From assembly GCA_030324005.1 (NCBI GenBank), contig JARDVH010000001.1:86097106-86161105 (forward strand): a stretch of 64,000 bases of DNA. Reading direction: 5' to 3'. This document shows, in pieces, positions 12,292 through 63,232 of this stretch. Under the pieces are notes generated by a model. The model had not been told where the DNA came from and did not search any database. It saw only the letters and a program-made list of their open reading frames with translations. The position numbers and the translations under genes were made by a program. Each line of letters opens with the position of its first letter. Within the stretch, counting starts at the first letter, position 1. The DNA is from Negaprion brevirostris. Taxonomy: Eukaryota.

Positions 12292-12632
12292 ATCATCATA
12301 GAAACTCTACAGCACAGAAAAAGGCCATTTGGCCCACTGAGTCTGCACCGACCACAATCCCACCCAAGTCCTACCTTCGTATCCCTACATATTTTAACCA
12401 CTAATCCCTCTAACCTATGCATCTCAGGACAGTAAGGGGCAATTTTAGTAAGGCCAATCAACCGAACCCTCACATCTTTGAACTGTGGGAGGAAACCGGA
12501 GCACCCGGAGTAAACCCACGCAGACTCGAGGAGAATGTGCAAACTCCACACAGACAATGATCAAGCCAGGAATTGAACCCAGGTCCCTGGAGCTGTGAAG
12601 CAGCAGTGCTAACCAGTGCTACCGTGCCACCC
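12292..12632 (-). mobile_element. Full-length tRNA-derived V-SINE (HE1-like)
   Basis: Minus strand has box A (GGCACGGTAGCACTGGTTAGCACTGCTG), box B (GGTTCAATTCC), the V-domain GTGTGGAGTTTGCACATTCTCC..GGGTGCTCCGGTTTCCTCCCACAG and a CR1-like tail ending in (ATG)n. Confidence 0.9.
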
Positions 12633-24034: not shown

Positions 24035-24365
24035 AAGAATCCCTTTACTACAGAAGGACTGTCATTCGATCCATCAAGTCTGCACCGACAACAATCCCAT
24101 CCAGGCCCTATCCTCATAACACTATGTCTTTACCTTGCTAGGCCCCCCTGACACTAAAGGGGTAATTTAGCATGGCCAATCAACCTATCTTTGGATATCC
24201 AACACATCTTTGGAATTTGGGAGGAAACCACAGCCCCTAGGGGAAACCCATGCACACACAGGGAGAATGTGCAAACTCCACACAGACAGTAGCTCGAGGT
24301 CAGAGTTTAACCTGGGTCCCTAGCACTGTGAGGCAACAGTGCTAACCACTGTATCACCATGCCAT
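24035..24365 (-). mobile_element. Full-length V-SINE (HE1-like)
   Basis: Same head, V-domain and tail as 12292-12632. Confidence 0.88.
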
Positions 24366-38325: not shown

Positions 38326-40389
38326 CAGACAGCTACCTATTTAGGTCATTAGCTATTTTATATTGAAATATTATTATAAATATTATATAACATTCTTTTG
38401 ATACTAGTCTCCACACTTTATTCCTTTCTTCAATCTAAAATTCCTGCCATTTCTTAACAAGGCAGTAAAAAACAGCAACTGATATTTTAAATAGAGAATA
38501 ATCTACCTGCAGTTATCAGATTGAATTCAAAGAATATGGTGTCTTTATATAGCTCTTTAAACATTATATTACACCTTCTTGCACAATGATGACAGTACTC
38601 AGCTACGATGACAGCACTGGATAACCTCTCTGTGGACTAAAGAAAGGAACTCTAACATGTGCCATTGAAATGAAAGTGCTGCTTTCAAATTCCAACTATG
38701 GTCATATATTACCAACTGAAAAGACAAGAAAAGTATGCCTGCTTATTTAAAAATCAGTGAAACTGAAAGATGATGTACAGTACCACTATAAAGCTTTTGA
38801 AATAAGTTTGTTAAAAGGGAAGTTTGTGCCAGTAGCAATTATAACAATGTGACGCCACCTGTTGGTAAGTTTTTACTTCTTGTACTCATACTAGACTGCA
38901 ACAGCAGTTTGTTTACTGTCATTTTGCCCCCATATGTAAAAAAATTGTTAGTAAAACATTACCATTCCCACACCATCTTACCACTCTCAAATACTACTTA
39001 AATTGTTCAAACCTCATGTAATTTTTATTATACAGGATTTCTTCCTAACCTTTCTCCCACCTCATATTCAAAGTATCTTAATTATTTCTCCAAACATTTC
39101 TGCAATCACTGTTTGTTCTAAATAAGATGACAAAACTGCAATGGTCTTTGAAAAAATAATTTACAGGACTTGCATTTGGTTATTTCATCAATAATATTAT
39201 CTCATCATACTCTATTGGTTTTTTCAGATTAGAAAAATGGCAAACATTTTCAAAGAAATCTTTTAAATTGATGCCTGGTCTACAAACCATTGGAAATTTC
39301 CTATTTTTGGATACTGATGGAAATTGCATGGTGCTACATTAAAATTTAACAGAAAAGGTCAAATTAGTTAATTTCAATGCTTTACAAATATATGACCTAC
39401 TAATTATTTTATTGCCAATCACAATGGAGAAATTCCACTACACGCCAATCCCTGTACTAGAGCTGTTGCTAATTTATCCTTGAAAAGTCTATTTGCAATT
39501 CCAGCAATTCTAAAATAGTGCAGTATCTCGAATCAGTATTCTACAATTTTTATTTTTCTTAAGTGTGAAATGTGTAAATTTCTGCAAACTGAAGAGATAT
39601 CAATTCAAATGTTGCAAAAAAAAGAAATAAATGGACTGCATAAAGCATTAATGTTGTACGCAGCACTTTCACTTTTTATTTCAATTATACACAGCTTTCC
39701 CAATTCTACTCTGAACACCCCTTTTGAGTATTATATTAAATGGAATCAGATGGAAACAAAGTTAGCAATGATTCCAGCAAGATATTAAAGACACAAGAGA
39801 ACAAAAATAAATGGGACAGAAATGAAGGGATATAAAACAAATAGACACAGATTGTAGATCACAAACAAAAATGTATTGGATAAATAGAAACTGAAGAGGT
39901 AAAGAACAAAAGTGAGTAAAATTACACCAGTGCTAAAGGTAGAAGACATAACAATGCAATTAAGTGACAAACTGCCAAACAGCATCAGCAATCACTTATC
40001 CAATCACTCCAAATCCTCAACCGAGTAGCTACTGTTTTGTGCAATGGGCAGATTATTTCAAGGTGGAGGCCATCACAGGTGAACCTAGTATACCTACAAA
40101 CATGCACCTCTAACAATGGTAGCTATCATTATTTGGATAGTATAGTCAATTTTATCTGTTTGGGACACTGATTGTGATTTTTTTGCTGTGATCCAGGTGA
40201 GATTGGCTTAAGTTAAAATAGGCCAGATATCAAAGTTTATTTATCTGGCCACGTCCGCTCACTCCCACCATCACATAGTGTATTTACCCATTGAGCCATC
40301 AGATACTAACTTGGCAGATGTGTCTCTAAAAAGCAATCTTATTCTTTAAATAGATGGTCTTAAATGCCCAAATACCGTCCGACTATTTA

Positions 40390-41610
40390 GAGCCATAGAG
40401 GTTTACAGCATGGAAACAAGTCCTTCAGCCCAATTTGTCCATGCCGCCCCTTTTTTTTAACCACTAAGCTNNNNNNNNNNNNNNNNNNNNNNNNNNNNNN
40501 NNNNNNNNNNNNNNNNNNNNNNNNNNNNNNNNNNNNNNNNNNNNNNNNNNNNNNNNNNNNNNNNNNNNNNNNNNNNNNNNNNNNNNNNNNNNNNNNNNNN
40601 NNNNNNNNNNNNNNNNNNNNNNNNNNNNNNNNNNNNNNNNNNNNNNNNNNNNNNNNNNNNNNNNNNNNNNNNNNNNNNNNNNNNNNNNNNNNNNNNNNNN
40701 NNNNNNNNNNNNNNNNNNNNNNNNNNNNNNNNNNNNNNNNNNNNNNNNNNNNNNNNNNNNNNNNNNNNNNNNNNNNNNNNNNNNNNNNNNNNNNNNNNNN
40801 NNNNNNNNNNNNNNNNNNNNNNNNNNNNNNNNNNNNNNNNNNNNNNNNNNNNNNNNNNNNNNNNNNNNNNNNNNNNNNNNNNNNNNNNNNNNNNNNNNNN
40901 NNNNNNNNNNNNNNNNNNNNNNNNNNNNNNNNNNNNNNNNNNNNNNNNNNNNNNNNNNNNNNNNNNNNNNNNNNNNNNNNNNNNNNNNNNNNNNNNNNNN
41001 NNNNNNNNNNNNNNNNNNNNNNNNNNNNNNNNNNNNNNNNNNNNNNNNNNNNNNNNNNNNNNNNNNNNNNNNNNNNNNNNNNNNNNNNNNNNNNNNNNNN
41101 NNNNNNNNNNNNNNNNNNNNNNNNNNNNNNNNNNNNNNNNNNNNNNNNNNNNNNNNNNNNNNNNNNNNNNNNNNNNNNNNNNNNNNNNNNNNNNNNNNNN
41201 NNNNNNNNNNNNNNNNNNNNNNNNNNNNNNNNNNNNNNNNNNNNNNNNNNNNNNNNNNNTGCAAACTTACTAACCATGCCTCCTAAATTCTCATCCAAAT
41301 CATTAATATAAATGACAAATAACAGTGGACCCAGCAACGATCTCTGAGGCACACTGCTGGTGACTGGCCTTCAGTCTGAAAAAGAACACTCTAAAATCAC
41401 TCTCTTGTCTTCTGTCATCAAGCCAATTTTGTATCCATTTGGTTACCTCACCCTGGATCCTGTAAGATTTAACCTTATTCAATAACACACTATGTGGTAC
41501 CTTGTCAAAGACCTTGCTAAAATCCATGTAGACAACATCAATTGCACTGCCTTCATCCAACATCTTGGTTACCCTTCAAAATACTCAATCAAATTTGTGA
41601 GTTATGGTTT
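40390..41610 (-). mobile_element. CR1 LINE (RT region and 3' tail) spanning a 789-N gap
   Basis: Translations DEGSAIDVVYMDFSKVFDKVPH and [30 protein letters not shown], with the CR1 tail at 40390-40470. Confidence 0.9.
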
Positions 41611-41764: not shown

Positions 41765-42012
41765 ACCATCGAACTATAGTCTCTATAATGGGTCTTCACC
41801 AACTCTCCAAAAGAGCATTCTAACCAGGTCCTCCCTGCCACGTTATCCCCGTAACCATGTGCATTCACCACGGCTAATCCACTTAACCTGGACATCTTTG
41901 AATTGTGGGAGGAAACCGGAGCACCCAGAGGAAACCCACACAGATATGGGAAGAACTCCACACACACAGTCACCCAAGGCCAGAATCAAACCCAAGTGCC
42001 TGGTGCTGTGAG
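41765..42012 (-). mobile_element. V-SINE (HE1-like), head truncated
   Basis: V-domain TGTGGGAGGAAACCGGAGCACCCAGAGGAAACCCAC on plus and part of the tRNA head. Confidence 0.85.
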
Positions 42013-45000
42013 TTTTGAGTGCTTTATGTTGCTGATACACTCAATCATTGCTTGAACTACTTTTTTAATTACTGTACCAAATTAGAATCAAAATTGATGT
42101 GTGTGAATAATTTAAAACATTAGACACTTCATGAAATACAAATGATGAAAACAAACTCCAAAAATCAAGCTTGAAGTTTTGTTTATACTGAAGTCACTGA
42201 AATGAAATTGGAGGTGAATGGGTCAGTTATACTATATCAGAGTCCAAATGGTTGTAACTTCATAATCACCCTATGAATTCAAGAATTCTGGTCATTTTTG
42301 AACAAGCAAGTGACTGAAAGTTTCTAAAATGTCAAAACTCACTACAGTTCTTCTGGGTACAGCATCCACCAGCTTTAACTGGACTGCATGCAACTGCAAA
42401 AGGTCGTGATCTGTTTCAAACAGAAAGGTATGGAACTCTCTCCAGAAGACTCTCTCACATTGGTTTGAGGTTGCATTTTGTGAAGTATAATTCCAGCCAG
42501 TTGCAAGGCTACATTTTAAAAGTTGACCAGGTTGCTCTTCAATGTGTGCAATGTGAAAAAGAAAGTAGACAATCTATGTCATCCAAAAAGCAGATCTTAC
42601 ATTTGGGGCCAAGGATGCATGCACAGAATACTTTGTTGCTCATTTTAGGAGATCAATAGTGAAATGCAGTAGGCTGAAAACTGCATTCCACACATAATCT
42701 GGGACAAATAACTGAAATATATCTGAAGCCCAAAGAGCAGTATGAATAAAGCAGTTACATTTTGCTCACATTCATTCAGTTTTCAGATTTATTAATGCCA
42801 CTGTTCAGTTTCACGATATGAGCAGAACCTGCATATTGACATTTTTAAGGCATGTACACTGCACAATGTTCTAATACTGCAGTCTTAAATTCCCAGATGC
42901 AAATTCTTGGTAATGATGCAAATAATTTGGTGGGGATTTTTAAAATTGACAAAGGTGGAATTTATTAATGGACATGTTTTTATGGTCATTGTTTTAAGCA
43001 GCAAAACCCAAAACTGTGAAGGTTAAATTTAAATTGCACTTAACAGTTATAATTTAGTGAGTAGATGGCAAAAACAGATGGCAACCCCTCGTCCAAACGG
43101 TTATAAACTAATTTCCACAATTTTCTTTTTCAATGAAACCAGTGCCCTGGAGTTAGTTATAGAGCACATCATCCAAGTCACACAAACACTATGTCATAAT
43201 GGTTGTACAATTGTATTTTCCACCAGCAACTTCTATTGTCAAGCACTGATACAGATTGAGAAACATAAGTAAGAAATAGTTTAGTCAAAAGNNNNNNNNN
43301 NNNNNNNNNNNNNNNNNNNNNNNNNNNNNNNNNNNNNNNNNNNNNNNNNNNNNNNNNNNNNNNNNNNNNNNNNNNNNNNNNNNNNNNNNNNTTGTTAGAC
43401 TTCAAAGAGCTTTAATTCAACTTTGGTTCACTTGAAAAGGTGCATAAAATTAGTCAAGACTGAAAAGCTAATGGTATTATCAACAAAGCAAATGATTCAT
43501 TGATGCTCTTTCTACACTGAGCTAGCAGAATTGCAACTTGTATCATTTGACTTACATCCAAAAAAAACCATATCAGACAAGAGATGCTCAGCTGCCTAAA
43601 AACGTCTCATTTATCTAACTACTTTCAACTTCCTCCACACCTAGTCTTAAGAAAGGTTTGAATGTCATTAAGCATCTCACTATATTTACAATGTTCACTG
43701 TGTATTTTCATAATGTATTTGAAATACTCAATTATTTCTGCTTGGTTATGAAGATTCATAGAATTTTACATGGAAAATTTGGAATGGATTGAAGTTGTTA
43801 AGCTTCTACATAAATATTATCAGTTAACTTTAGTACCGTCTTCAGTTCCAGCTGTCAAGAAAATTCATTTGAGTAATATGCATAGCTTTTCATTTGCATT
43901 GACAACCTACCAAAAAACTCACCCAGCAAAATGTACAAAAATGTGACCAACAGATTTATTACTTGAATGAAGAGTCACTTAGTATGGCACAATAGGTATT
44001 GAAATACAAACAAATACCAGTAGCCTGAAGTTATAACTTATGTAACCATGTTTTTCCTTGACTTGAAGCTATTTTCAAGATTATGATACTTAATTTCTCT
44101 GCCACTTGAAGTACAGAATATTTATTTTACATCATGACAACAAAGAATATATCTGACCTGCAAAACATTACATAATGACCAAAACTATCATTTATGCCAA
44201 ACGACAGTGCACAAATCTTCTTGTTTTGGCCCAGCTGAACTCTTACTGAACGTTCTCAGATTAAATTAGTAGATAAAAAGTGCAATTTTCTGATGTAGTT
44301 GAACTTTAATGCTTGGATAAACATTCATAAGGTATGCCTTCNNNNNNNNNNGCAAGCAATCTGACTTAATGCAGGAATGTATGCAAACACTGTGACTGCT
44401 TGTTCTCCATCTATATCTGGGATAGTAAAAAAACCCAAAATTTGTTGTAGCCTGTTTTCATAATTTTGGGGAGAGAGTATCTGTCATTCAACACATATTG
44501 GTAACGCGTGGTTGAGTTATGCTTACGTCCCAAATTCAGTTTCTGACAAAAGGTGTTACACATCTTAATTTACTCGCCTCAGAATTACACTTTTAATAGT
44601 CTTCAGAATGGTGGTCAGAATTTTAACCATAGTCTAGAATTTTAGCCTTGTACAGCATTATTCCATTTTAATTCACAATGTTTCCAGAAAGCTTCAAAGA
44701 AATATAATAATGAAGCCATTTGAAAACATTCAACTCTGCAGTAATCAAAGGTTAAGCTGTGTGAATTAAGAAGCCATACTATTGAAGTTTGCAGAAAATT
44801 GTTTGGCTATAAATAGAAATTCTCATATTGTCCTATTTTCATTTAAAAAACAGGTCTCTACCGTTTTTAGTAGGTTAAACAAGTAAATGTCTTCTTCTAA
44901 ATTTTAAAACATAGGAATAAATGCGATTGCTAGTGTGCATGGTCTCCAGTTCAAGGATGATACTTGAGCTGCTGCGAGTTAGTTGCCAAAGCAGCAAGGC

Positions 45001-45653: not shown

Positions 45654-48600
45654 TTAGACACGACTTTGGTAATTAGTGCTTCTTACCTGCTTGCTGTACT
45701 TGTTATTGATCTGGCAGCTGTATTCAGAGCAGTGATCTGATTCAATTGAGATGTTGTCACCTGTCCCTACGAAGGTATTGGCTGGTGGCAGTTCTTGCAC
45801 TGCTTGATGTTTCTTCCCTGCAGTAGGTGACTGGGGATGAAGCTGAACAGTTGGCAATGGAGAGCTAGATTTGTAATGCCTACCGAGGTCAGGACTTCCT
45901 GGTCCACCATTCATGGAGCGATAGCGTCCCATGCCAGGGCTCTCTGTAAGTTTCTCATTCACACTATCGTATCTCTGTCCATTTGGTTTTGATGCTTCCA
46001 CAGTCACAATGCTACTATATAGAGGCTGTTTGGACTTCTTGCCCTTTTTGTCCTTCTTGGGTTTCTTAGACTTGTCATGTTGCTGGGGAGTGAAAAAGTC
46101 TTCGGGATCCTTTTTGCCAGCCTCGTATCCATTCTTGGATTTTTTGGGTCGACAGTATCTAGCCAAAACCACAACCAGGATGATCAAAATGACTGTCATG
46201 ACACCGGCAACAACCCCAATAACAATGCTAAGTCGTTGCTTGCTCATCTCGTAATTCGGATCGCCGGCAATATCTTGTCTCAGCGAAGTGCGAAGACTTC
46301 GGGCTATCTGAGCTTCCACTATTGTCGCATTGGAAACGCTTTCATTGACAAACACGTGGACCATTGCCGTGGTGTACTGCGAAGGCTGCCCGCTATCATT
46401 GACCTGCACTATCAAACGATGCAGGCCATAGTGCTTCTGGGTCAGCTTTCCCACCAAAGAGATGACCCCACTTGCAGAGTCAATCTCAAACAGTTTGAAG
46501 GGATTTCCCCCCACGATGCTGTAATTGAGGTCAGCATTGATACCAGTGTCCCTGTCTGTAGCCAGGACGGTGGCCACCACCGTGCGCAGGTTACTGGAAG
46601 GGGGTAGTAGAGTGTAAGTGGCGTTTTTGGGGAAGGTGATAGTGGGGGCATTGTCATTTTCATCCATGACATAGAGAGAAACCATGGCCGTGGAGGATTT
46701 GGGGGGGTCTCCCCCGTCCACAGCCTTCACTTTGAAGGAGTAGGTGGTCTGATGCTCCCTGTCGAAGGACATGGTGGAGTAAATGGTGCCGGTATCGTTG
46801 TCGATGGAGAAAATGTTGTCGTCCTCCTCGATGAAGAGGCTGAGCTCGGCGTTCTTGCCCTCGTCCGCGTCCATCACGGTCACCATCCCAACCGGGCTGT
46901 TGGGCGCCAAGTTTTCCTTCACGTAGAAAGTGAAGATGTCCTGCATGAAGCGGGGCTCGTTGTCGTTGGTGTCTTGGACCTGGACCACCACCATGGCGCT
47001 GCCCTCCAGGCTGGGGACGCCCTTGTCCCGGGCCACCACCCTGAACTCGTAGCGGGGGGTCTGCTCGCGGTCCAGCACCACGTTGGCGATGATGGCGCCC
47101 TTGGCGGGCTCGATGGAGAAGACGCCGGCGGCCGCCGGGTCCAGCGAGTAGGCGATCTCGGCGTTGCGGCCGTCATCGGCGTCCGAGGCCAGCACGGTGG
47201 CCACCTGGTCGCCCGGCGCGTTGTTCTCGGCGATGGCCACCCGGAAGACGGCCTGCGGGAAGACGGGCGGGGTGTCGTTGATGGCGGCGACCCGGACGAG
47301 CAGCGAGTTGTTGCTGGAGAGGCTGGGGCTGCCCGAGTCCACGGCCACGATCACCACCGAGTACTGGCGCACCGCCTCGTAGTCGAGGGGCGCCGCGGTG
47401 TGCAGGAAGTACTTCCTCTTCTGCTCGCTATCCGACTCGCTGGCCGACTTGAGCTGGAAGGGCACGTCGCCCACGATGGTGCAGGTGACGGCGCCGTTCT
47501 CGCCCTGGTCGCGGTCGGACACCTGCACCAGGGCGATGGGGGTGTCCACCAGCACGTCCTCGGCCACGCTGGCCACGCCGTCGCGCAGCACGATGCGCCC
47601 GATCTTGCGGATGTCCACCTGGGGCACGTTGTCGTTCTGGTCGCGCACGGCCAGCAGCACGGTGGCGCGGTCGGTGCGCGGCGGCTGCCCGCGGTCCTTG
47701 GCCAGCACGTTGAAGCGGAGCTGGGCCACCTCCTCGCGGTCCAGCCGGTGCAGCACGCTGAGCCAGCGGCTGCTAGCGTCCAGCCGCAGCAGGCGGCGCA
47801 CCGACTCGGTGGCGGCGCCGAAGACGTACTCGAGCTGCCCGTTGACGCCGGTGTCCAGGTCGGTGGCCCGCAGCTGCAGGATGGGGGTGCCGGGCGGGCT
47901 ATTCTCGGGCAGCTCGGCTTGGTAGAGCGCGCGCTCGAAGCGCGGGCTGTTGTCGTTAACGTCCGAGATGAGCACGCGGAGCAGGGCGGAGGAGGAGCGC
48001 GCGGGCTGCCCGCCGTCCCTCACTCTCAGGCTCAGCTCGTACGAGTCCCTCAGCTCCCGGTCCAGGGCCCCCTTGACGATCAGCTGCGGCTGCTTGTCGC
48101 CGTCCGGCGTGTCGGCCACCTGCAACTCGAAGACGCTGCTGCGGCCTGTCCCCAGCGCTCCCCCCTCCTCCACCATCTCCATCTCCTGCTGCTGCTCCTC
48201 CCCTCCTCCTGCCCCCTCGGCGGCGGCCGCCTCTCCCGCCCGGCGGCTCTCGGGCAGCAGCTGGTAGCGCTCGATGCCGTTGGTGCCGAAGTCGCGGTCG
48301 GTGGCGGTGGGCAGCAGGTAGAGGGTGCCCACCGGGCGGTTCTCCTCCACCGTCAGGGTGAGCACCGGCGACGGGAAGCTGGGCGTGTTGTCGTTGATGT
48401 CCTCCACGATGACTTTGCCGTCGTACAGGTCGACCCAGCTCTGCGCCGGCCCGATCACCGACACCTCGAAGTCGATGAAGCACTCGTTCTCGTCGAAGAT
48501 CATCTGGCACTGGGGCAGCTTCTCGCGGTCCGTCCGCCGGCCCGTCGTGCTCAGCTCGCCCGTGATTTTGTCGATCTTGAAGTAGTCGGATCCCGACTCC

Positions 48601-48773
48601 AGGCTGAAAGTCACCTCCNNNNNNNNNNNNNNNNNNNNNNNNNNNNNNNNNNNNNNNNNNNNNNNNNNNNNNNNNNNNNNNNNNNNNNNNNNNNNNNNNN
48701 NNNNNNNNNNNNNNNCGCTGGCCAGCACGGCCGCGGTCCGCACGAACAGCAGCAGCGGGAAGCAGAAGGGCAT
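45654..48773 (-). CDS. PCDH7: Protocadherin-7 (delta-1 protocadherin), large exon 1; read-through into the intron gives a short C-terminus (...KYSKQVRSTNYQSRV*)
   Basis: Open frame of about 1040 codons. It has a hydrophobic signal peptide (MPFCFPLLLFVRTAAVLAS), seven cadherin repeats with DxNDN/LDRE/AxDxG motifs, a TM segment (LSIVIGVVAGVMTVILIILVVVLA) and the tail KNGYEAGKKD..FFTPQQHDKSKKPKKDKK..HYKSSSPLPTVQLHPQSPTAGKKHQAVQ..SDHCSEYSCQ, closely matching vertebrate PCDH7 as recalled. Start placed at the ATG at 48773 (GCCATGC Kozak context); the ORF-track start at 48806 is a TTG. A 97-N gap at 48619-48715 keeps the frame. Confidence 0.97.
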   Translation of the reverse strand: MPFCFPLLLFVRTAAVLASXXXXXXXXXXXXXXXXXXXXXXXXXXXXXXXXXEVTFSLESGSDYFKIDKITGELSTTGRRTDREKLPQCQMIFDENECFIDFEVSVIGPAQSWVDLYDGKVIVEDINDNTPSFPSPVLTLTVEENRPVGTLYLLPTATDRDFGTNGIERYQLLPESRRAGEAAAAEGAGGGEEQQQEMEMVEEGGALGTGRSSVFELQVADTPDGDKQPQLIVKGALDRELRDSYELSLRVRDGGQPARSSSALLRVLISDVNDNSPRFERALYQAELPENSPPGTPILQLRATDLDTGVNGQLEYVFGAATESVRRLLRLDASSRWLSVLHRLDREEVAQLRFNVLAKDRGQPPRTDRATVLLAVRDQNDNVPQVDIRKIGRIVLRDGVASVAEDVLVDTPIALVQVSDRDQGENGAVTCTIVGDVPFQLKSASESDSEQKRKYFLHTAAPLDYEAVRQYSVVIVAVDSGSPSLSSNNSLLVRVAAINDTPPVFPQAVFRVAIAENNAPGDQVATVLASDADDGRNAEIAYSLDPAAAGVFSIEPAKGAIIANVVLDREQTPRYEFRVVARDKGVPSLEGSAMVVVQVQDTNDNEPRFMQDIFTFYVKENLAPNSPVGMVTVMDADEGKNAELSLFIEEDDNIFSIDNDTGTIYSTMSFDREHQTTYSFKVKAVDGGDPPKSSTAMVSLYVMDENDNAPTITFPKNATYTLLPPSSNLRTVVATVLATDRDTGINADLNYSIVGGNPFKLFEIDSASGVISLVGKLTQKHYGLHRLIVQVNDSGQPSQYTTAMVHVFVNESVSNATIVEAQIARSLRTSLRQDIAGDPNYEMSKQRLSIVIGVVAGVMTVILIILVVVLARYCRPKKSKNGYEAGKKDPEDFFTPQQHDKSKKPKKDKKGKKSKQPLYSSIVTVEASKPNGQRYDSVNEKLTESPGMGRYRSMNGGPGSPDLGRHYKSSSPLPTVQLHPQSPTAGKKHQAVQELPPANTFVGTGDNISIESDHCSEYSCQINNKYSKQVRSTNYQSRV
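45681..45689 (-). other. PCDH7: 5' splice donor at end of PCDH7 exon 1 (CAG|GTAAGA, phase 0 after ...KYSKQ)
   Basis: Plus strand tcttacctg reads CAG|GTAAGA on minus. It falls exactly where PCDH7 isoforms diverge in other vertebrates (after KYSKQ). Confidence 0.9.
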
Positions 48774-51200
48774 GGCTCCCGGAGTCAATGTACCAAAAAA
48801 ATACAAATCCCCCCCTGTCTCTCTCTCTCTCTCCTCCCTCTAACCGAGGGAAAATCTGCTCAAAGTGTCCGGGCTCACACTCTAATAAAGTCACTGCAGA
48901 GTCACACACATCGCTCGAGTTTCTGAGCCCCTCTCATCTCAAAACTGGATCACTGTCTTTCCCCAGTCTTGCTTTTTTTTTTGCAATTGCCACTCTCGGG
49001 ATTCCCAGCCCCAAAGAAAGCAGCATTTAAGTCAAATTGATCACCTTGAATCCGTTAGTGGTTTTTGGACATGTCTCTGGAGTCACGTTGTTCCAAGTTT
49101 GCCCTGCATCCGCAGTTAGTGTGTCTTTACCTGCGTGCTGCTGGTTACTGGACTGTGTGTGTGTGTGTCGGCAGCACTCGGAGTGCCCCAACCTTGCTAT
49201 TGCAGTCTTTCCCTTTCACTTCACACTCTTCTTGTCCCTTTTTTTTGGCTGTTCTTTCTCCGCCCGTCCGTACTGACTCCAGAGGCAGCTCCCGAGTGGT
49301 GGAAGAAATAAAAAGGGGAGGGGTAGTGGCGGGAGGTGGGGGGGCTCTGGAGCCCGATCAGAAAGTTGAAAGCTTGCGAAAGACGAATGGGGGGAACGCG
49401 ATTCGCGTCCCCGCGTCGTTGAAGATTGCGGCGAGCAAGAGGAGTCCCGCAGAATAAAAAGGTTGCAGTTAGTGACTTTCCTATTCAACCCGATAAAAAA
49501 AACTGGTACAAAAAAGAGAAGGGGTTGTCAAGCTGTGTCTAAAATGCAGATACTCCTCTGGATTGAGGGTGAATAGGGAAATCCTAGTTGGTACAACGGG
49601 AATCCGAATGAGAGCAAACTGATTGCACGATGCGGATCTTTAAAACAAACGACGGCTGCAAGTGCATTGCTTCTGGATCTGGTCCGAGCAGTTGAATAAA
49701 AAAATCCCCAATTAAAGAATGAATAGGCTGCAGCACTTTTGACAACGGCAAGTTTTCTTATTCCAGACCCCGAAGTATTCCCTGACGCAGTCGTTTCTGT
49801 GGTGCTGAATCTTTCTTAGAGGGGGGAAAAAGTCCGTCCTTGTTATTCGATTAGTCGTGGTCTGCTGAGTAGTTCATTGCTATTCCTGCAGTTGAAGTTG
49901 GGTTTGTCTGTCTCTCGCTCTCTCCCCGTACAATTCAGCCTTCTGTAGTCAGAAAGTAGCTGCAGGTTATAGCGCAAAGCCTGACTCCGAAGGCGATGTT
50001 GCTCAAAGGATCGGAGTCTACAAAAGAGTGAATGTAATAATGTTCTTTCCTCTCCCTCGGGCTAGCGATCTGTAAATTCCGTTGCTTCCCTCCTTTATAT
50101 CTGCACGTTGTTAGCTGTGAATTCAGGTTAGCAGCAGAGTCCCGATTTCTCTCTCCCACCCTCTTTTGTATGCCATCCCGCTCAGAGTGTGGGTGAATGT
50201 GAGAGTTTTCTGACTCATTTGAGGTAGCGTCACCTACACGAGTGAAAAGGAACTGAAGCGCGGTCAGGAAATGCAGAGATTCCTCTTTCTACATCATCCA
50301 TCTCTTCCCTCATTTGCTTCCTTTTACGTTCGTCGCTTCCTTTTTTCCCCTGTGCCGTTGCATTTATTTTAATACAATGTTACTTTCCCATTAAACAAAA
50401 TACTCACATTTTATTTCTTTACGTTATCTCCCTATGTTCTTACTCGGTGCATTCGGCTACGTGTTTTGGTACCCTGCGTTAAAGCCATTCAATTTTACTC
50501 AAGTATATTTGTGAAAGATTATATATTTGCACGATCGATGTTTTTTTAAAAATATCCAGTTCGTCCTGTAGCTTTGAGGGAAGGTGCGGTCTAAAATTCG
50601 TCTTTTATTCAGACGCAGAGGAGTAGAAAAGGCTCGCGTGTGTGAGAGAAACCAAGGCTGACTGCGAGTTTGAAATCGTTAAATGGTATTTTTCCCTACA
50701 TTGTTTTATTTGCAAGCATGATAAAGACGTGTATTTTCCCCGTTTGTCCTCCCCCGTCAAAGCCGAGGTTAGATTCTTGGGAACACGTATACCAACATAC
50801 TTGACAAAACACGTTTTAACAAAAGAGCCCATCGCGTTTTCCCTGAAACCGGGTGAGCTGGAGCTCCCGTGTTGCGTTTTGGGGGGGGTGGAAGGGGTTG
50901 TGCAGTGAGTGCTGCAGTTGCAAATTGCAGCTACGAATGGTGCATCGCCGCGGCGGCTTCTTTAAGCGAGAGGCAGCAGGCAGGCTCTCGCAGCCGCCGT
51001 GTTGAGGAGCTCGGGGTGAAAGTTGGCTGCTTTGCTCTCTTTGCCCCCTCCCCGCTTTTTGCTGGGCTAAGCTGGACGAAGCTCACGGACCGCAGCGAGT
51101 CTGCGGCAGCAATGAGCAGCGCCTGCGCGGGGAGGCGTGGGACAGCACTGGTGACAGCCAGAAAGTGATGACAGAGACAGGAAAAAATACTGGCGAGAGC
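46750..51200. promoter_or_regulatory. PCDH7: CpG island spanning PCDH7 exon 1, 5' leader and promoter
   Basis: Very high GC and CpG density at 46.8-48.8 kb, with CpG retention continuing to about 51-52 kb. The remainder of the window is strongly CpG-depleted. Confidence 0.85.
48619..48715. other. Assembly gap inside the PCDH7 CDS (other large gaps: 8170-8269, 18492-18832, 28814-28913, 33601-33788, 38141-38240, 40471-41259, 43292-43391)
   Basis: Runs of N in the sequence. Confidence 0.99.
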
Positions 51201-53934: not shown

Positions 53935-54132
53935 CAATTCCTACAGGGCAGGAGGAGGTCATTTGGCCCATCGAGTCCTATCTCCATAACCCCACATATT
54001 TTCCCAATTAATCCCCTGACACTAAGAGGCAACTTAGCACAGCTGATCAACGTAACATGCACATCTTTGGCATGTGGGAGGAAATTGGAGCCCCCAGAGG
54101 AAACTCATGCAGACATGGAGAGAACATGCAAA
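53935..54132 (-). mobile_element. V-SINE fragment (tail plus V-domain, head missing)
   Basis: CTACAGGGCAGGAGGAGGTCATTTGGCCCATCGAGTC..GGGAGGAAATTGGAGCCCCCAGAGGAAAC.. Confidence 0.8.
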
Positions 54133-54134
54133 TA

Positions 54135-54422
54135 AGTTTAAGTTTATTCATGTGACAAGTAGGCTTATATTAACACTGCAGTGAAGGTACTGTGAAAATC
54201 CCCTAGTTGCCACACTCCGGTGCTTATTCAAGTACACTGAGGGGGAATTTAGCATGGCCAATGCACTTAACCAGTATGTCTTTTGGACTGCGAAAGGAAA
54301 CTGAAACATCTGGAGGAAACCCACACAGACATGAAGAGAATGTGCAGACTCCACACAGTGACCCAAGCCAGGAATTCCTGGCACTGTTGGCAGTAGTGCT
54401 AACCACGTGCTACTGTACTGCC
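54135..54422 (-). mobile_element. V-SINE of a second subfamily with a different 3' tail
   Basis: Same head and V-domain, but the tail is ..CTCAGTGTAC..GGAGTGTGGCAACTAGGGGATTTTCACAGTA..AAGCCTACTTGTCAC..AATAAAC. Confidence 0.85.
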
Positions 54423-58525: not shown

Positions 58526-59079
58526 CAGAAAAAAAACCTGATGACTTAGAGGTGATGAAAATTAGAAGAGTTCTGCTAAGAAGTTATTGAAGTAATTTCT
58601 TCTTTGCCTTCAGAGAGAGCGAGAGAAGGAAAAATAGAAGTGATTCTTCCTTCATCCTTAATGTGTGCTCTGTCTGAACCAGGTCCCTGGCTCATTGTCC
58701 TTGGATGCTTCATCCTCAGTTTCTTTTCTAGGCAGTTTTTGTCAGTAGTGGTTTGCCGTTGCTTTTCACTGTCAGGGGCAGGATGAAAAGGCAGGTCCAG
58801 AGGCTACCTCAGCTGGAACAGAAATTAAACCAACACTGTTGGCATGAATCTAAACAAGCCATTTACCCAACTGAGCTAAACAGCTGCCTTGTTTTGGGAA
58901 GAGAAAGAAGTGGAGAAGTGGAGCACCACAAGTGTTGTATACAACTATCCAAAATTAGTTCAGGTTAGCAATGTTTCATGAGTCAGAGATTCTTCTGGTA
59001 GTCAATAGCAGACCTGCAGAGGCTCCTGATAGAGTAACCGCACCTTCAGCAGTTATTACATCTGTCAAGGGCATCAAGG

Positions 59080-59202
59080 TATGGAGATGCCGGCGTTGGA
59101 CTGAGGTGGACACAGTAAGAAGACTCACAGCACCCAAGCTAAAGTCCAACAGGTTTATTTAGAATCACAAGCTTTCAGAGCACTAATCCTTCATCAGGTG
59201 AT
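59080..59202 (-). mobile_element. Penelope-like element terminal fragment containing a minimal type-I hammerhead ribozyme motif
   Basis: Minus strand reads AUCAC-CUGAUGA-AGGAUUAGUGCUCU-GAAA-GC-UU-GUGAU, followed by ...AAUAAACCUGUUGGAC...CAGUCCAACGCCGGCAUCUCC. This resembles the common shark Penelope-type repeat end as recalled. Confidence 0.7.
59164..59202 (-). ncRNA. Candidate minimal hammerhead ribozyme (type I)
   Basis: Core CUGAUGA...GAAA...UH is intact, with stem I AUCAC/GUGAU, a weak stem II (GGA/UCU) and a palindromic AAGCUU in place of stem III. Confidence 0.6.
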
Positions 59203-59954
59203 GGGCACTCAAGGTGATGGTTGTCTGTTTTGTTTTTGCTCCAGGGTTCTTGAGAAATGTTGCACTTGGGTGCAGATGGGAGCATAAACTCCATTCAAGT
59301 AGGCAAGTTCCAATGAAGCTCCCAAAAGAAGGCCACTAGTAAACTAAATGATTTAGCAATATATGGGTTCCCAAAAGTCTTAATTGATAATGACTGATGA
59401 CTCATGGTGAGTAAGNNNNNNNNNNNNNNNNNNNNGACCTTTTACAAATTGGAAGGGATGCAATCTCAGTGTGTATCTGCCTTGTGACTAATGTCCACAA
59501 ACTACATAGGTTGGCTGTGCTATCTTGCATCAGCCCAATATCTTTGTCCTTTTAGATCTCAAGCAGCTAGTCACAGAGGCCTATTGGGGAACGATGCCAC
59601 TTGTAATTGCCATTGTTGATGGCATTTGTCCAGCACATGCAAATCCAACTGAGACAATTCAGGGCTAGGCTTGGAACTACCAATTAATGTAAATAGTGGT
59701 TTAGTTGCCTTGTATAATATGGACATATCCTTACATATTCATTCCACCTTCCATATCATGATCACTTGCTGCATCCTGCAACATTGTTATTGTGTGAGGC
59801 TTATCTACCACAGAAAGAATTCTGAAAAGAATAGCAGCAAATTTGATGAAGGATGTAGAGATGTTCTTATGCATGGAATTGATTTCACAACAAAAAAAAC
59901 TTCAATCAACTAGTAGAGAAGTGAAAGACGTTCCAATCATGACCAAGGGAACCC

Positions 59955-62570: not shown

Positions 62571-62700
62571 ATACACTCACAATGGAAACAACAGTTCTCT
62601 TCTCCACTCATACTCACCTTGGAAAAACAGTTCTCTCCTCCACTCACACTTGCCTTGGAAAAATTGTTTTTCTGCTCACCTCATACTCACATTGGGAAAC
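62571..62700 (+). repeat. Minisatellite, unit of about 36-38 bp x 3.5
   Basis: Unit ATACTCACCTTGGAAAAACAGTTCTCTCCTCCACTC repeated with divergence. Confidence 0.8.
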
Positions 62701-62702
62701 AA

Positions 62703-63232
62703 TGGTGGTACAGTGACACAGTGGTTAGTTCTGCTGCCTCACAGCGCTCGGGACCCAGGTTCAATTCTGGACTTGGGTAACTGTCTGTGTGTTTACACAT
62801 TCTTCCTGAGTCTGCATGCGTTTCCTTTGGGTGCTCTCATTTCCTCTTGCAGTTCAAAGGTGTGCAGGTCAGGTAGATTAGCCATGGTAAATATGTGGCA
62901 TTACGGGGATATGGCAGGGCGGGCTGGGGCAGTGGGCAGGCCACTCTTTCAGAGAGTTGGTGCATGGAGCTTCCATGGGCCAAATAGCCTCACAGTGCCA
63001 GGGATCCGGGTTCAATTCTGGCCTTAGGGGACTGTGTGGAGTTTGACCTTCTCTGTGTCTGCATTGGTTTCCTCTGGGTGCTCCGGTTTCCTCTCACAGT
63101 CCAAAGATGTGCAGGTCGGGTGAATTAGCCATGGTAAATGTGTGGGGTTATTGCAATAGGGTGAGAGGGCAGCTCTTCTGGAGACCCTCGATGAGCCAAA
63201 TTGCTTTATTCTGCACTGTAGGGATTGTATAA
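62703..63232 (+). mobile_element. Two fused V-SINEs in tandem (62703-62991 and 62987-63232)
   Basis: The first has box A/B and the V-domain and stops at GGGCCAAATAGCCTC. The second begins at GCCTCACAGTGCCAGGGATCCGGGTTCAATTC and runs to a complete tail. Confidence 0.88.

What the first reader, a model, noticed from the sequence alone, without database searches (positions are those of the whole stretch)
59164..59202. Near-intact minimal hammerhead ribozyme in a Penelope-like fragment upstream of PCDH7
Seen: the minus strand reads AUCAC CUGAUGA AGGAUUAGUGCUCU GAAA GC UU GUGAU. That gives the full catalytic core (CUGAUGA, GAAA, UH), a 5-bp stem I, a weak stem II and a self-complementary AAGCUU where stem III would be. 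Known: Penelope-like retroelements and retrozymes carry minimal type-I hammerheads with palindromic stem III that cleave as dimers. Inference: this is a self-cleaving-RNA relic of a shark Penelope/retrozyme family, co-oriented with PCDH7 about 10 kb upstream of its ATG. Stem II looks eroded, so this copy may be inactive.
Basis: partly seen in the sequence, partly recalled or inferred. Interest (0 to 1): 0.7.

Follow-up and report, generated by a model that had tools for sequence, protein, structure and literature searches.

The report
Decayed Penelope hammerhead at transcript start
This is a real but worn copy of a small self-cutting RNA motif from a very common Penelope-type jumping gene; this copy is predicted to be inactive, and copies like it likely record where the jumping gene's RNA begins.

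Summary
The motif is there as described. It is the first 38 nt of a 120-nt insertion (59082-59201, minus strand) flanked by an imperfect 12-13-bp duplication. The insertion belongs to a high-copy Penelope-like element (PLE): longer copies run upstream into an RT plus GIY-YIG-like ORF with a CX4CxxC linker (Neptune-type). The family carries a textbook minimal hammerhead with covarying stem II. This copy has four changes (two in stem II, C11.1>U, C17>U), is predicted not to fold, has no partner in the window, and is identical in two related organisms. It is not a retrozyme, and nothing links it to PCDH7 beyond position.

The family adds one point. Of 66 unselected copies at risk, 35 end within -10..+1 of the core, with no peak at the cleavage site. 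A TATA-like box lies about 30 nt upstream. The non-element base before the start is G 2,029 times against 1,526 for A plus T. Such copies are likely run-off cDNAs of the uncut, capped RNA leader. This scan has already noted the family and this reading in other genomes.

The parts
59082..59201 (-). 120-nt PLE insertion: hammerhead, hairpin and tail; ends uncertain by 1-2 nt
   Evidence: 88-91% identity to the best genome hits over this span; repeat depth falls to single-copy level beyond 59203 and below about 59080
59198..59202 (-). Stem I, 5' strand (4 family pairs; A59202 gives a fifth pair only in this copy)
59191..59197 (-). Catalytic core C3-A9, intact
59177..59190 (-). Bulged A plus stem II; eroded by G>T 59186, C>T 59185 and C>T 59177 (G10.1-C11.1 becomes G-U)
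   Evidence: alignment of 74 copies; hairpin alone 0.0 kcal/mol against -5.8 in intact copies
59169..59176 (-). GAAA, AGCU palindrome (helix III only in a dimer), U16.1, and N17 = U (C or A in the family's subfamilies); predicted cut between 59169 and 59168
59164..59168 (-). Stem I, 3' strand
59095..59150 (-). Predicted long hairpin downstream of the hammerhead, closing inside the tail
   Evidence: folds; z -1.8 for the 146-nt stretch
59082..59113 (-). PLE 'tail' (32 nt here, about 35 in the family), optional among copies
   Evidence: 40 of 100 anchored copies scored as carrying it; inverted arms mostly stop before it
59203..59215 (-). Probable target-site duplication, 5' copy
   Evidence: 12 of 13 match with one gap; 0.4% of 5000 random 41-nt windows score as high
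59069..59080 (-). Probable target-site duplication, 3' copy
45654..48839 (-). PCDH7-like large exon (context only; likely ATG at 48773)

Best explanation
This is a decayed 120-nt insertion of a high-copy, likely Neptune-type Penelope-like retrotransposon whose minimal hammerhead is predicted to be inactive here, and it was likely made as a run-off copy of the uncut, capped front end of the element's RNA. Shown: family membership, link to the RT ORF, the lesions, the clustering of 5' ends, the TATA-like spacing and the G excess. Inferred, step 1: a tandem or read-through copy is transcribed from a TATA/initiator in the pLTR, starting about 6 nt before the core. Step 2: the element's protein nicks DNA and starts reverse transcription inside the RNA at the tail end, as shown in vitro for an anole PLE. 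Step 3: it copies through the uncleaved hammerhead to the RNA's 5' end, often adding a G opposite the cap. Step 4: the copy then decayed without function. In the active element the hammerhead would cut about 35 nt from the cap, as a dimer or with protein help.
For: Family: 5,057 first-look candidates; 854, 5,890 and 6,152 exact pattern hits with 0 control hits. ORF link: longer copies continue into 3' UTR, endonuclease and RT; RVT_1 E 7e-8 and 3e-8 above cut-off in 2 of 4 frames, 9e-4 below cut-off in a third; GIY-YIG E 0.0025, below cut-off; CX4CxxC linker (L076). Covariation in 52 in-register copies: stem II pair 3 A-U 33, G-U 12, G-C 4, A-C 0 (p 0.009); pair 4 G-C 31, A-U 8, A-C 3, G-U 3 (p 1e-4). 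Decay: 12 substitutions and one insertion in 120 nt, 4 of 37 in the hammerhead and 8 of 83 outside it (read); core intact in 19 of 52 copies, fully intact in 5 of 52; predicted pairing of both stems 0.0 here, against about 0.86-1.0 for most pairs in 3 of 4 intact copies. 5' ends: 35 of 66 at risk end at -10..+1, rate ratio 8.8, p 3e-17; cleavage site 3 events, p 0.43. TATAW starts 28-33 nt before A(-6) in 48 of 84 long copies. Base before A(-6) genome-wide: C 15,530, G 2,029, A or T 1,526; 18 G of 24 in loci not chosen on that base.
Against: No RNA evidence of a start site or of cleavage. The G has rival sources: in 6 of 40 G-start copies the inverted arm runs up to and includes the G, and in 6 more it ends 1-3 nt before. 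In 2 of the 3 single copies with a scored duplication the G is also in the target copy; 13 of 16 gave no call. Over all starts -8..-4 the G excess is 23 of 52 (p 0.008), but only 9 of 23 (p 0.16) in the unbiased sample alone. This copy has A, not G, at its junction, so the cap argument rests on the family. The TATA spacing is one inherited feature, not 48 events, and 23 of 84 long copies lack it. Covariation reflects a few subfamily changes. Only 9 of 32 simple copies showed a duplication-like score. No full-length pLTR-ORF 5' junction was found, and clade placement rests on one motif, without a tree.
Confidence: 0.72

Rival explanations
1. Same decayed PLE fragment, but the shared 5' end is a reverse-transcriptase stop or template switch on a long RNA at the folded hammerhead, and the G comes from target microhomology or the inverted arm.
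For: 5' truncation and inverted copies are routine in PLEs (PMC8557442 passages). Ends spread over about 10 nt. Some Gs lie in the target duplication or in the other arm.
Against: RT would stall entering a structure (its 3' side), not after passing it (inference). Ends coincide with a TATA/initiator-like spacing. G also appears in the middle of inverted pairs, away from target DNA: 5 of 6 cases not explained by the other arm under a permissive filter, 15 of 18 pairs overall.
Confidence: 0.2
2. A non-autonomous retrozyme or SINE-like unit that spreads by its own hammerhead-cut RNA.
For: Short copies with near-fixed ends are very common.
Against: No tandem array here. Ends do not match the cleavage site. 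The sequence is collinear with the end of the protein-coding element, and short copies occur in each subfamily seen.
Confidence: 0.05
3. This copy was co-opted as a working ribozyme or regulatory element for PCDH7.
For: Core intact, same strand as the gene, and 59155-59201 identical in two related organisms.
Against: About a third of copies keep the core anyway (19 of 52). At about 2.5% flank divergence only about 1.2 changes are expected in 47 nt, so identity is unremarkable. Stems are predicted unfolded. The next copy seen, about 11 kb upstream, has a broken core (L091). At least 19,085 arms exist genome-wide.
Confidence: 0.03

Closest known systems
Minimal hammerheads (min-HHR) in pLTRs of metazoan PLEs (Cervera and De la Pena 2014, PMC4209133; parts 1-2 of 4 of the main text read)
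   Same: Core, 4-5 bp helix I, unpaired base between positions 9 and 10.1, G10.1-C11.1 in the family, palindromic 15.2-16.2 without loop 3, mostly single dispersed copies from truncated elements.
   Different: Helix II is 5 bp (7-8 in Schistosoma). This copy has lost G10.1-C11.1 and has U17. Sharks are not named in the parts I read.
EN+ PLEs, Neptune clade (Craig et al. 2021, PMC8557442, passages; Arkhipova et al. 2013, PMC3846280, passages)
   Same: RT followed by GIY-YIG-like domain, CX2-5CxxC linker, 5' truncation, inverted 5' copies, optional 30-40-bp tail, short duplications; a TATA plus initiator-like pair was noted in a rotifer pLTR.
   Different: Clustering of 5' ends at the hammerhead's front edge with an extra G is not described in those passages. 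No tree was built here.
PAc (Poseidon, green anole) in vitro (Frangieh et al. 2024, PMC11167929; parts 1-2 of 4 read; figure S2 gave only labels)
   Same: Two internal RT start sites that bound the tail, downstream of the hammerhead; uncleaved RNA as the main template; cleavage seen only with protein.
   Different: Poseidon clade; its ORF starts inside the hammerhead, whereas here an ATG follows the tail (not shown to be the start codon).
Non-LTR retrozymes (bioRxiv 10.64898/2026.07.22.740005; part 1 of 5 and passages read)
   Same: Type I hammerhead, related to PLE pLTRs; reported in one chondrichthyan genome.
   Different: Defined as tandem arrays with a hammerhead in each unit; this is a single insertion.
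Untemplated 5' G of full-length L1 and SVA insertions (PMC4859970, passages)
   Same: Extra G at the 5' junction, read as reverse transcription of the cap.
   Different: Other element class; here the copies are about 90-125 nt and start internally.

Membership tests
Minimal type I HHR of PLEs | Core CUGANGA, GAAA, UH | tested here: met
Minimal type I HHR of PLEs | Helix I of 4-5 bp and palindromic 15.2-16.2 | tested here: met
Minimal type I HHR of PLEs | Stable helix II with G10.1-C11.1, in the family | tested here: met
   5 bp with compensatory pairs
Minimal type I HHR of PLEs | Stable helix II with G10.1-C11.1, in this copy | tested here: not met
   G-U at 10.1-11.1, one mismatch, predicted unfolded
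Minimal type I HHR of PLEs | Self-cleavage as dimer or with protein | not testable with these tools
   needs an in vitro assay
Rfam hammerhead families | Covariance-model match | tested here: not met
   0 matches at E up to 10
EN+ Penelope-like element | RT ORF upstream of the same terminal repeat | tested here: met
EN+ Penelope-like element | C-terminal GIY-YIG endonuclease | tested here: inconclusive
   motif visible; Pfam E 0.0025 below cut-off in one copy, none in others
EN+ Penelope-like element | Optional tail, inverted 5' copies, 5' truncation | tested here: met
   tail 40 of 100; inverted arm 41 of 82 scored
Neptune clade | CX2-5CxxC linker between RT and EN | tested here: met
   L076 and others; also a Nematis trait
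Neptune clade | RT phylogeny | not tested
   no reference set at hand
Non-LTR retrozyme | Two or more tandem units each with a hammerhead | tested here: not met
Non-LTR retrozyme | Circular RNA from hammerhead cleavage | not testable with these tools
   needs RNA data

The most novel reading that the evidence does not exclude
In this PLE family the hammerhead occupies the first 40 or so bases of the capped transcript, and the thousands of short insertions are a fossil map of the start site. Only uncut RNA is copied into DNA, so cleavage would remove the cap rather than make the template, acting as a switch that ends translation or destroys the RNA.
Probability: 0.55. Interest if true: 0.5.

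Novelty: new member of a known kind. Interest (0 to 1): 0.3.

Why it matters
The locus itself is ordinary: one worn copy among tens of thousands of a motif class described in 2014. The family matters more, because the role of PLE hammerheads is still called unclear (PMC8557442, passage). If the copies mark a capped start just before the hammerhead, that gives genomic support for the in vitro result that uncut RNA is the template. It also makes a precise test possible: map capped and cleaved 5' ends.

Tried and rejected
Rfam: no match. RNA runs: no RNA holder listed, which says nothing about expression. A peak of 5' ends at the cleavage site: not seen. A first truncation script let N match N; 5' positions were redone with censoring, and only its tail and inverted-arm counts are used. 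One search's position-by-position difference list lost register after an insertion; lesions were read. The in-register scan misplaces a few copies with indels, so 19 of 52 and 5 of 52 are approximate; 2 further rows had no register. Pfam missed four short degraded frames and one read-through frame. A shared ORF start downstream of the tail was not found among 125 tail copies. No complete intact ORF was seen in the 16 stretches fetched; several long frames were N runs. An empty site was not seen: both related organisms carry the insertion. A sequence look-up of earlier findings returned nothing. Papers: searches found no paper on shark PLE hammerheads or on a PLE start site at the hammerhead; the library lacks most subscription journals, and Repbase was not available. 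Figure S2 of PMC11167929 and the supplements of PMC4209133, which I did not see, may bear on 5' ends and on species covered.

Full report
Observation. The minus strand at 59202-59164 carries the motif exactly as reported. The bare core pattern occurs 9 times in the window, near chance. A fuller descriptor picks out only this site, with hits in 2 of 200 crude shuffles. Rfam does not detect it, and the 39-nt stretch folds no better than shuffles (z 0.17).

What it is. The motif opens a 120-nt repeat copy (59082-59201) that is 88-91% identical to the best other places in the 2.69-Gb genome; 40 of 5,057 candidates were scored. Exact patterns give 854, 5,890 and 6,152 hits with no control hits, and 19,085 for the 5' half of the motif. 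By eye, about 13 of 54 hammerhead-bearing copies match that last pattern exactly, which puts the total at roughly 70,000-80,000 arms. This is a rough estimate. At that density a same-strand copy within 10.4 kb upstream of a gene is expected about one time in seven, and about one in 27 at the hard lower bound. The position near the PCDH7-like exon therefore needs no explanation.

Parent element. Longer copies continue upstream through about 280 nt of 3' UTR into an ORF remnant. Fetched copies show RT motifs with the DKG motif typical of PLEs, RVT_1 hits, Atlas look-alikes at 0.97 among eukaryotic RT clusters, a CX4CxxC linker, and a weak GIY-YIG hit. The linker points to Neptune or Nematis (PMC8557442 passages); no tree was made. 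Many copies have an inverted partial copy at the 5' side and an optional tail, the standard PLE layout. The window holds no other piece of the element.

The hammerhead in the family and in this copy. In 74 aligned copies the majority has a 4-bp stem I, a bulged A, a 5-bp stem II closed by G10.1-C11.1, and the AGCU palindrome followed by C; a second subfamily has A there. This is the min-HHR of Cervera and De la Pena. Stem II shows compensatory pairs across subfamilies, which suggests that active elements were selected to keep the fold, though few independent events are involved. Inserted copies decay: 19 of 52 keep the core and 5 of 52 keep core, closing pair and stems. This copy has G>T 59186, C>T 59185, C>T 59177 and C>T 59169; the last two fall at CpG sites of the family. 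Its divergence is the same inside and outside the motif. The hammerhead-shaped fold is -1.9 kcal/mol against -9.5 for an alternative, with stem pairing near 0, whereas 3 of 4 intact copies fold as hammerheads. That U17 cleaves poorly is recalled, not tested. The next copy seen on the same strand, about 11 kb upstream, has a broken core, so no dimer partner was found nearby. Even intact min-HHRs were silent as monomers and weak as dimers.

Age. Contigs from two related organisms cross both junctions. They differ from the window by about 2.5% in the flanks, and all their differences on the upstream contig fall outside 59155-59201. The insertion and its lesions predate that split. Identity over 47 nt is expected about three times in ten at this divergence, so it does not show constraint. 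An imperfect 12-13-bp duplication flanks the copy.

Where copies begin. I took the first 100 exact hits of a 39-nt anchor lying downstream of the hammerhead, all on contig C1; 20 were censored by gaps or length. Of 66 copies still aligned at the core, 35 end within -10..+1 of C3, 8.8 times the rate elsewhere; the predicted cleavage site shows no excess. Junction positions are good to about 3 nt, and direct and inverted arms are mixed. This copy starts at -4 to -6. In long copies a TATAW starts 28-33 nt before the A at -6 in 48 of 84, an ordinary spacing for a polymerase II start (recalled); a TATA plus initiator pair was noted in a rotifer pLTR. Where the base before that A is not the element's C, it is G 2,029 times and A or T 1,526 times genome-wide (31 A and 69 T among the first 100 listed), though flanks are 21% G. 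Of the first 43 G cases listed I fetched 40 (three were already held). The script called 4 long (2 by eye), 6 explained by the inverted arm, 6 within 3 nt of it, 10 further from it and 14 without an arm. An extra 5' G marks copying of the cap in L1 and SVA. Against this, the G sat inside the target duplication in 2 of 3 scored cases, and the excess over all starts was not significant in the unbiased sample alone.

Mechanism. The anole element starts reverse transcription at two internal sites that bound the tail, uses uncut RNA, and cleaves only with protein present. The same layout here predicts copies that run from either tail boundary to the RNA's 5' end, which is what the short copies look like. 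An ATG follows the tail in many copies (A 102, T 90, G 61 of 125) and may open the ORF; this was not shown. I put the whole account at about 0.7, the PLE origin alone above 0.95, and inactivity of this copy near 0.9.

Novelty. The motif class and insertion layout are published. My paper searches found no report of the start-site reading, but coverage is partial. Earlier notes of this scan describe the same family type 142 times in at least 14 genomes, several times in this genome, and the capped-start reading in other genomes. I wrote that idea down, before seeing, but after one search had mentioned shared start points. Those notes are not independent evidence. Verdict: a real, ordinary, likely dead relic, with a testable family-level inference.

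Noticed in passing
window 58724-58890: A second multi-copy fragment (raised depth); on the minus strand it looks like a tRNA-headed SINE (label from recall).
   Followed up: no
window 12445-12618, 24177-24351, 41833-42031, 54034-54348, 62694-63169: Dispersed copies of a SINE-like repeat in both orientations; they resemble the shark HE1 SINE (label from recall).
   Followed up: no
L091:6426-6537 (about 11 kb upstream of the finding, beyond the window, minus strand): Another copy of the same family, with tail and a broken core.
   Followed up: partly
family stem I and core (e.g. L012:1500-1512): The antisense strand reads as a consensus 5' splice donor (CAG|GTGAGT; consensus recalled), so antisense copies in introns could offer cryptic donors. 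This copy keeps only part of it.
   Followed up: no
L020 and L101, inner junction of inverted pairs: The two arms meet at a central CG; in L020 both start with G then A(-6), as expected if each arm ended with a cap-derived base.
   Followed up: partly
L041:76-484 and 1506-2066; L085; L088: Partial tandem and inverted arrangements around RT-bearing copies; at least two subfamilies differing by 7 nt downstream of the hammerhead.
   Followed up: partly
window 40387-41370 (minus): LINE-type RT motif fragment next to a long N stretch (label from recall).
   Followed up: no
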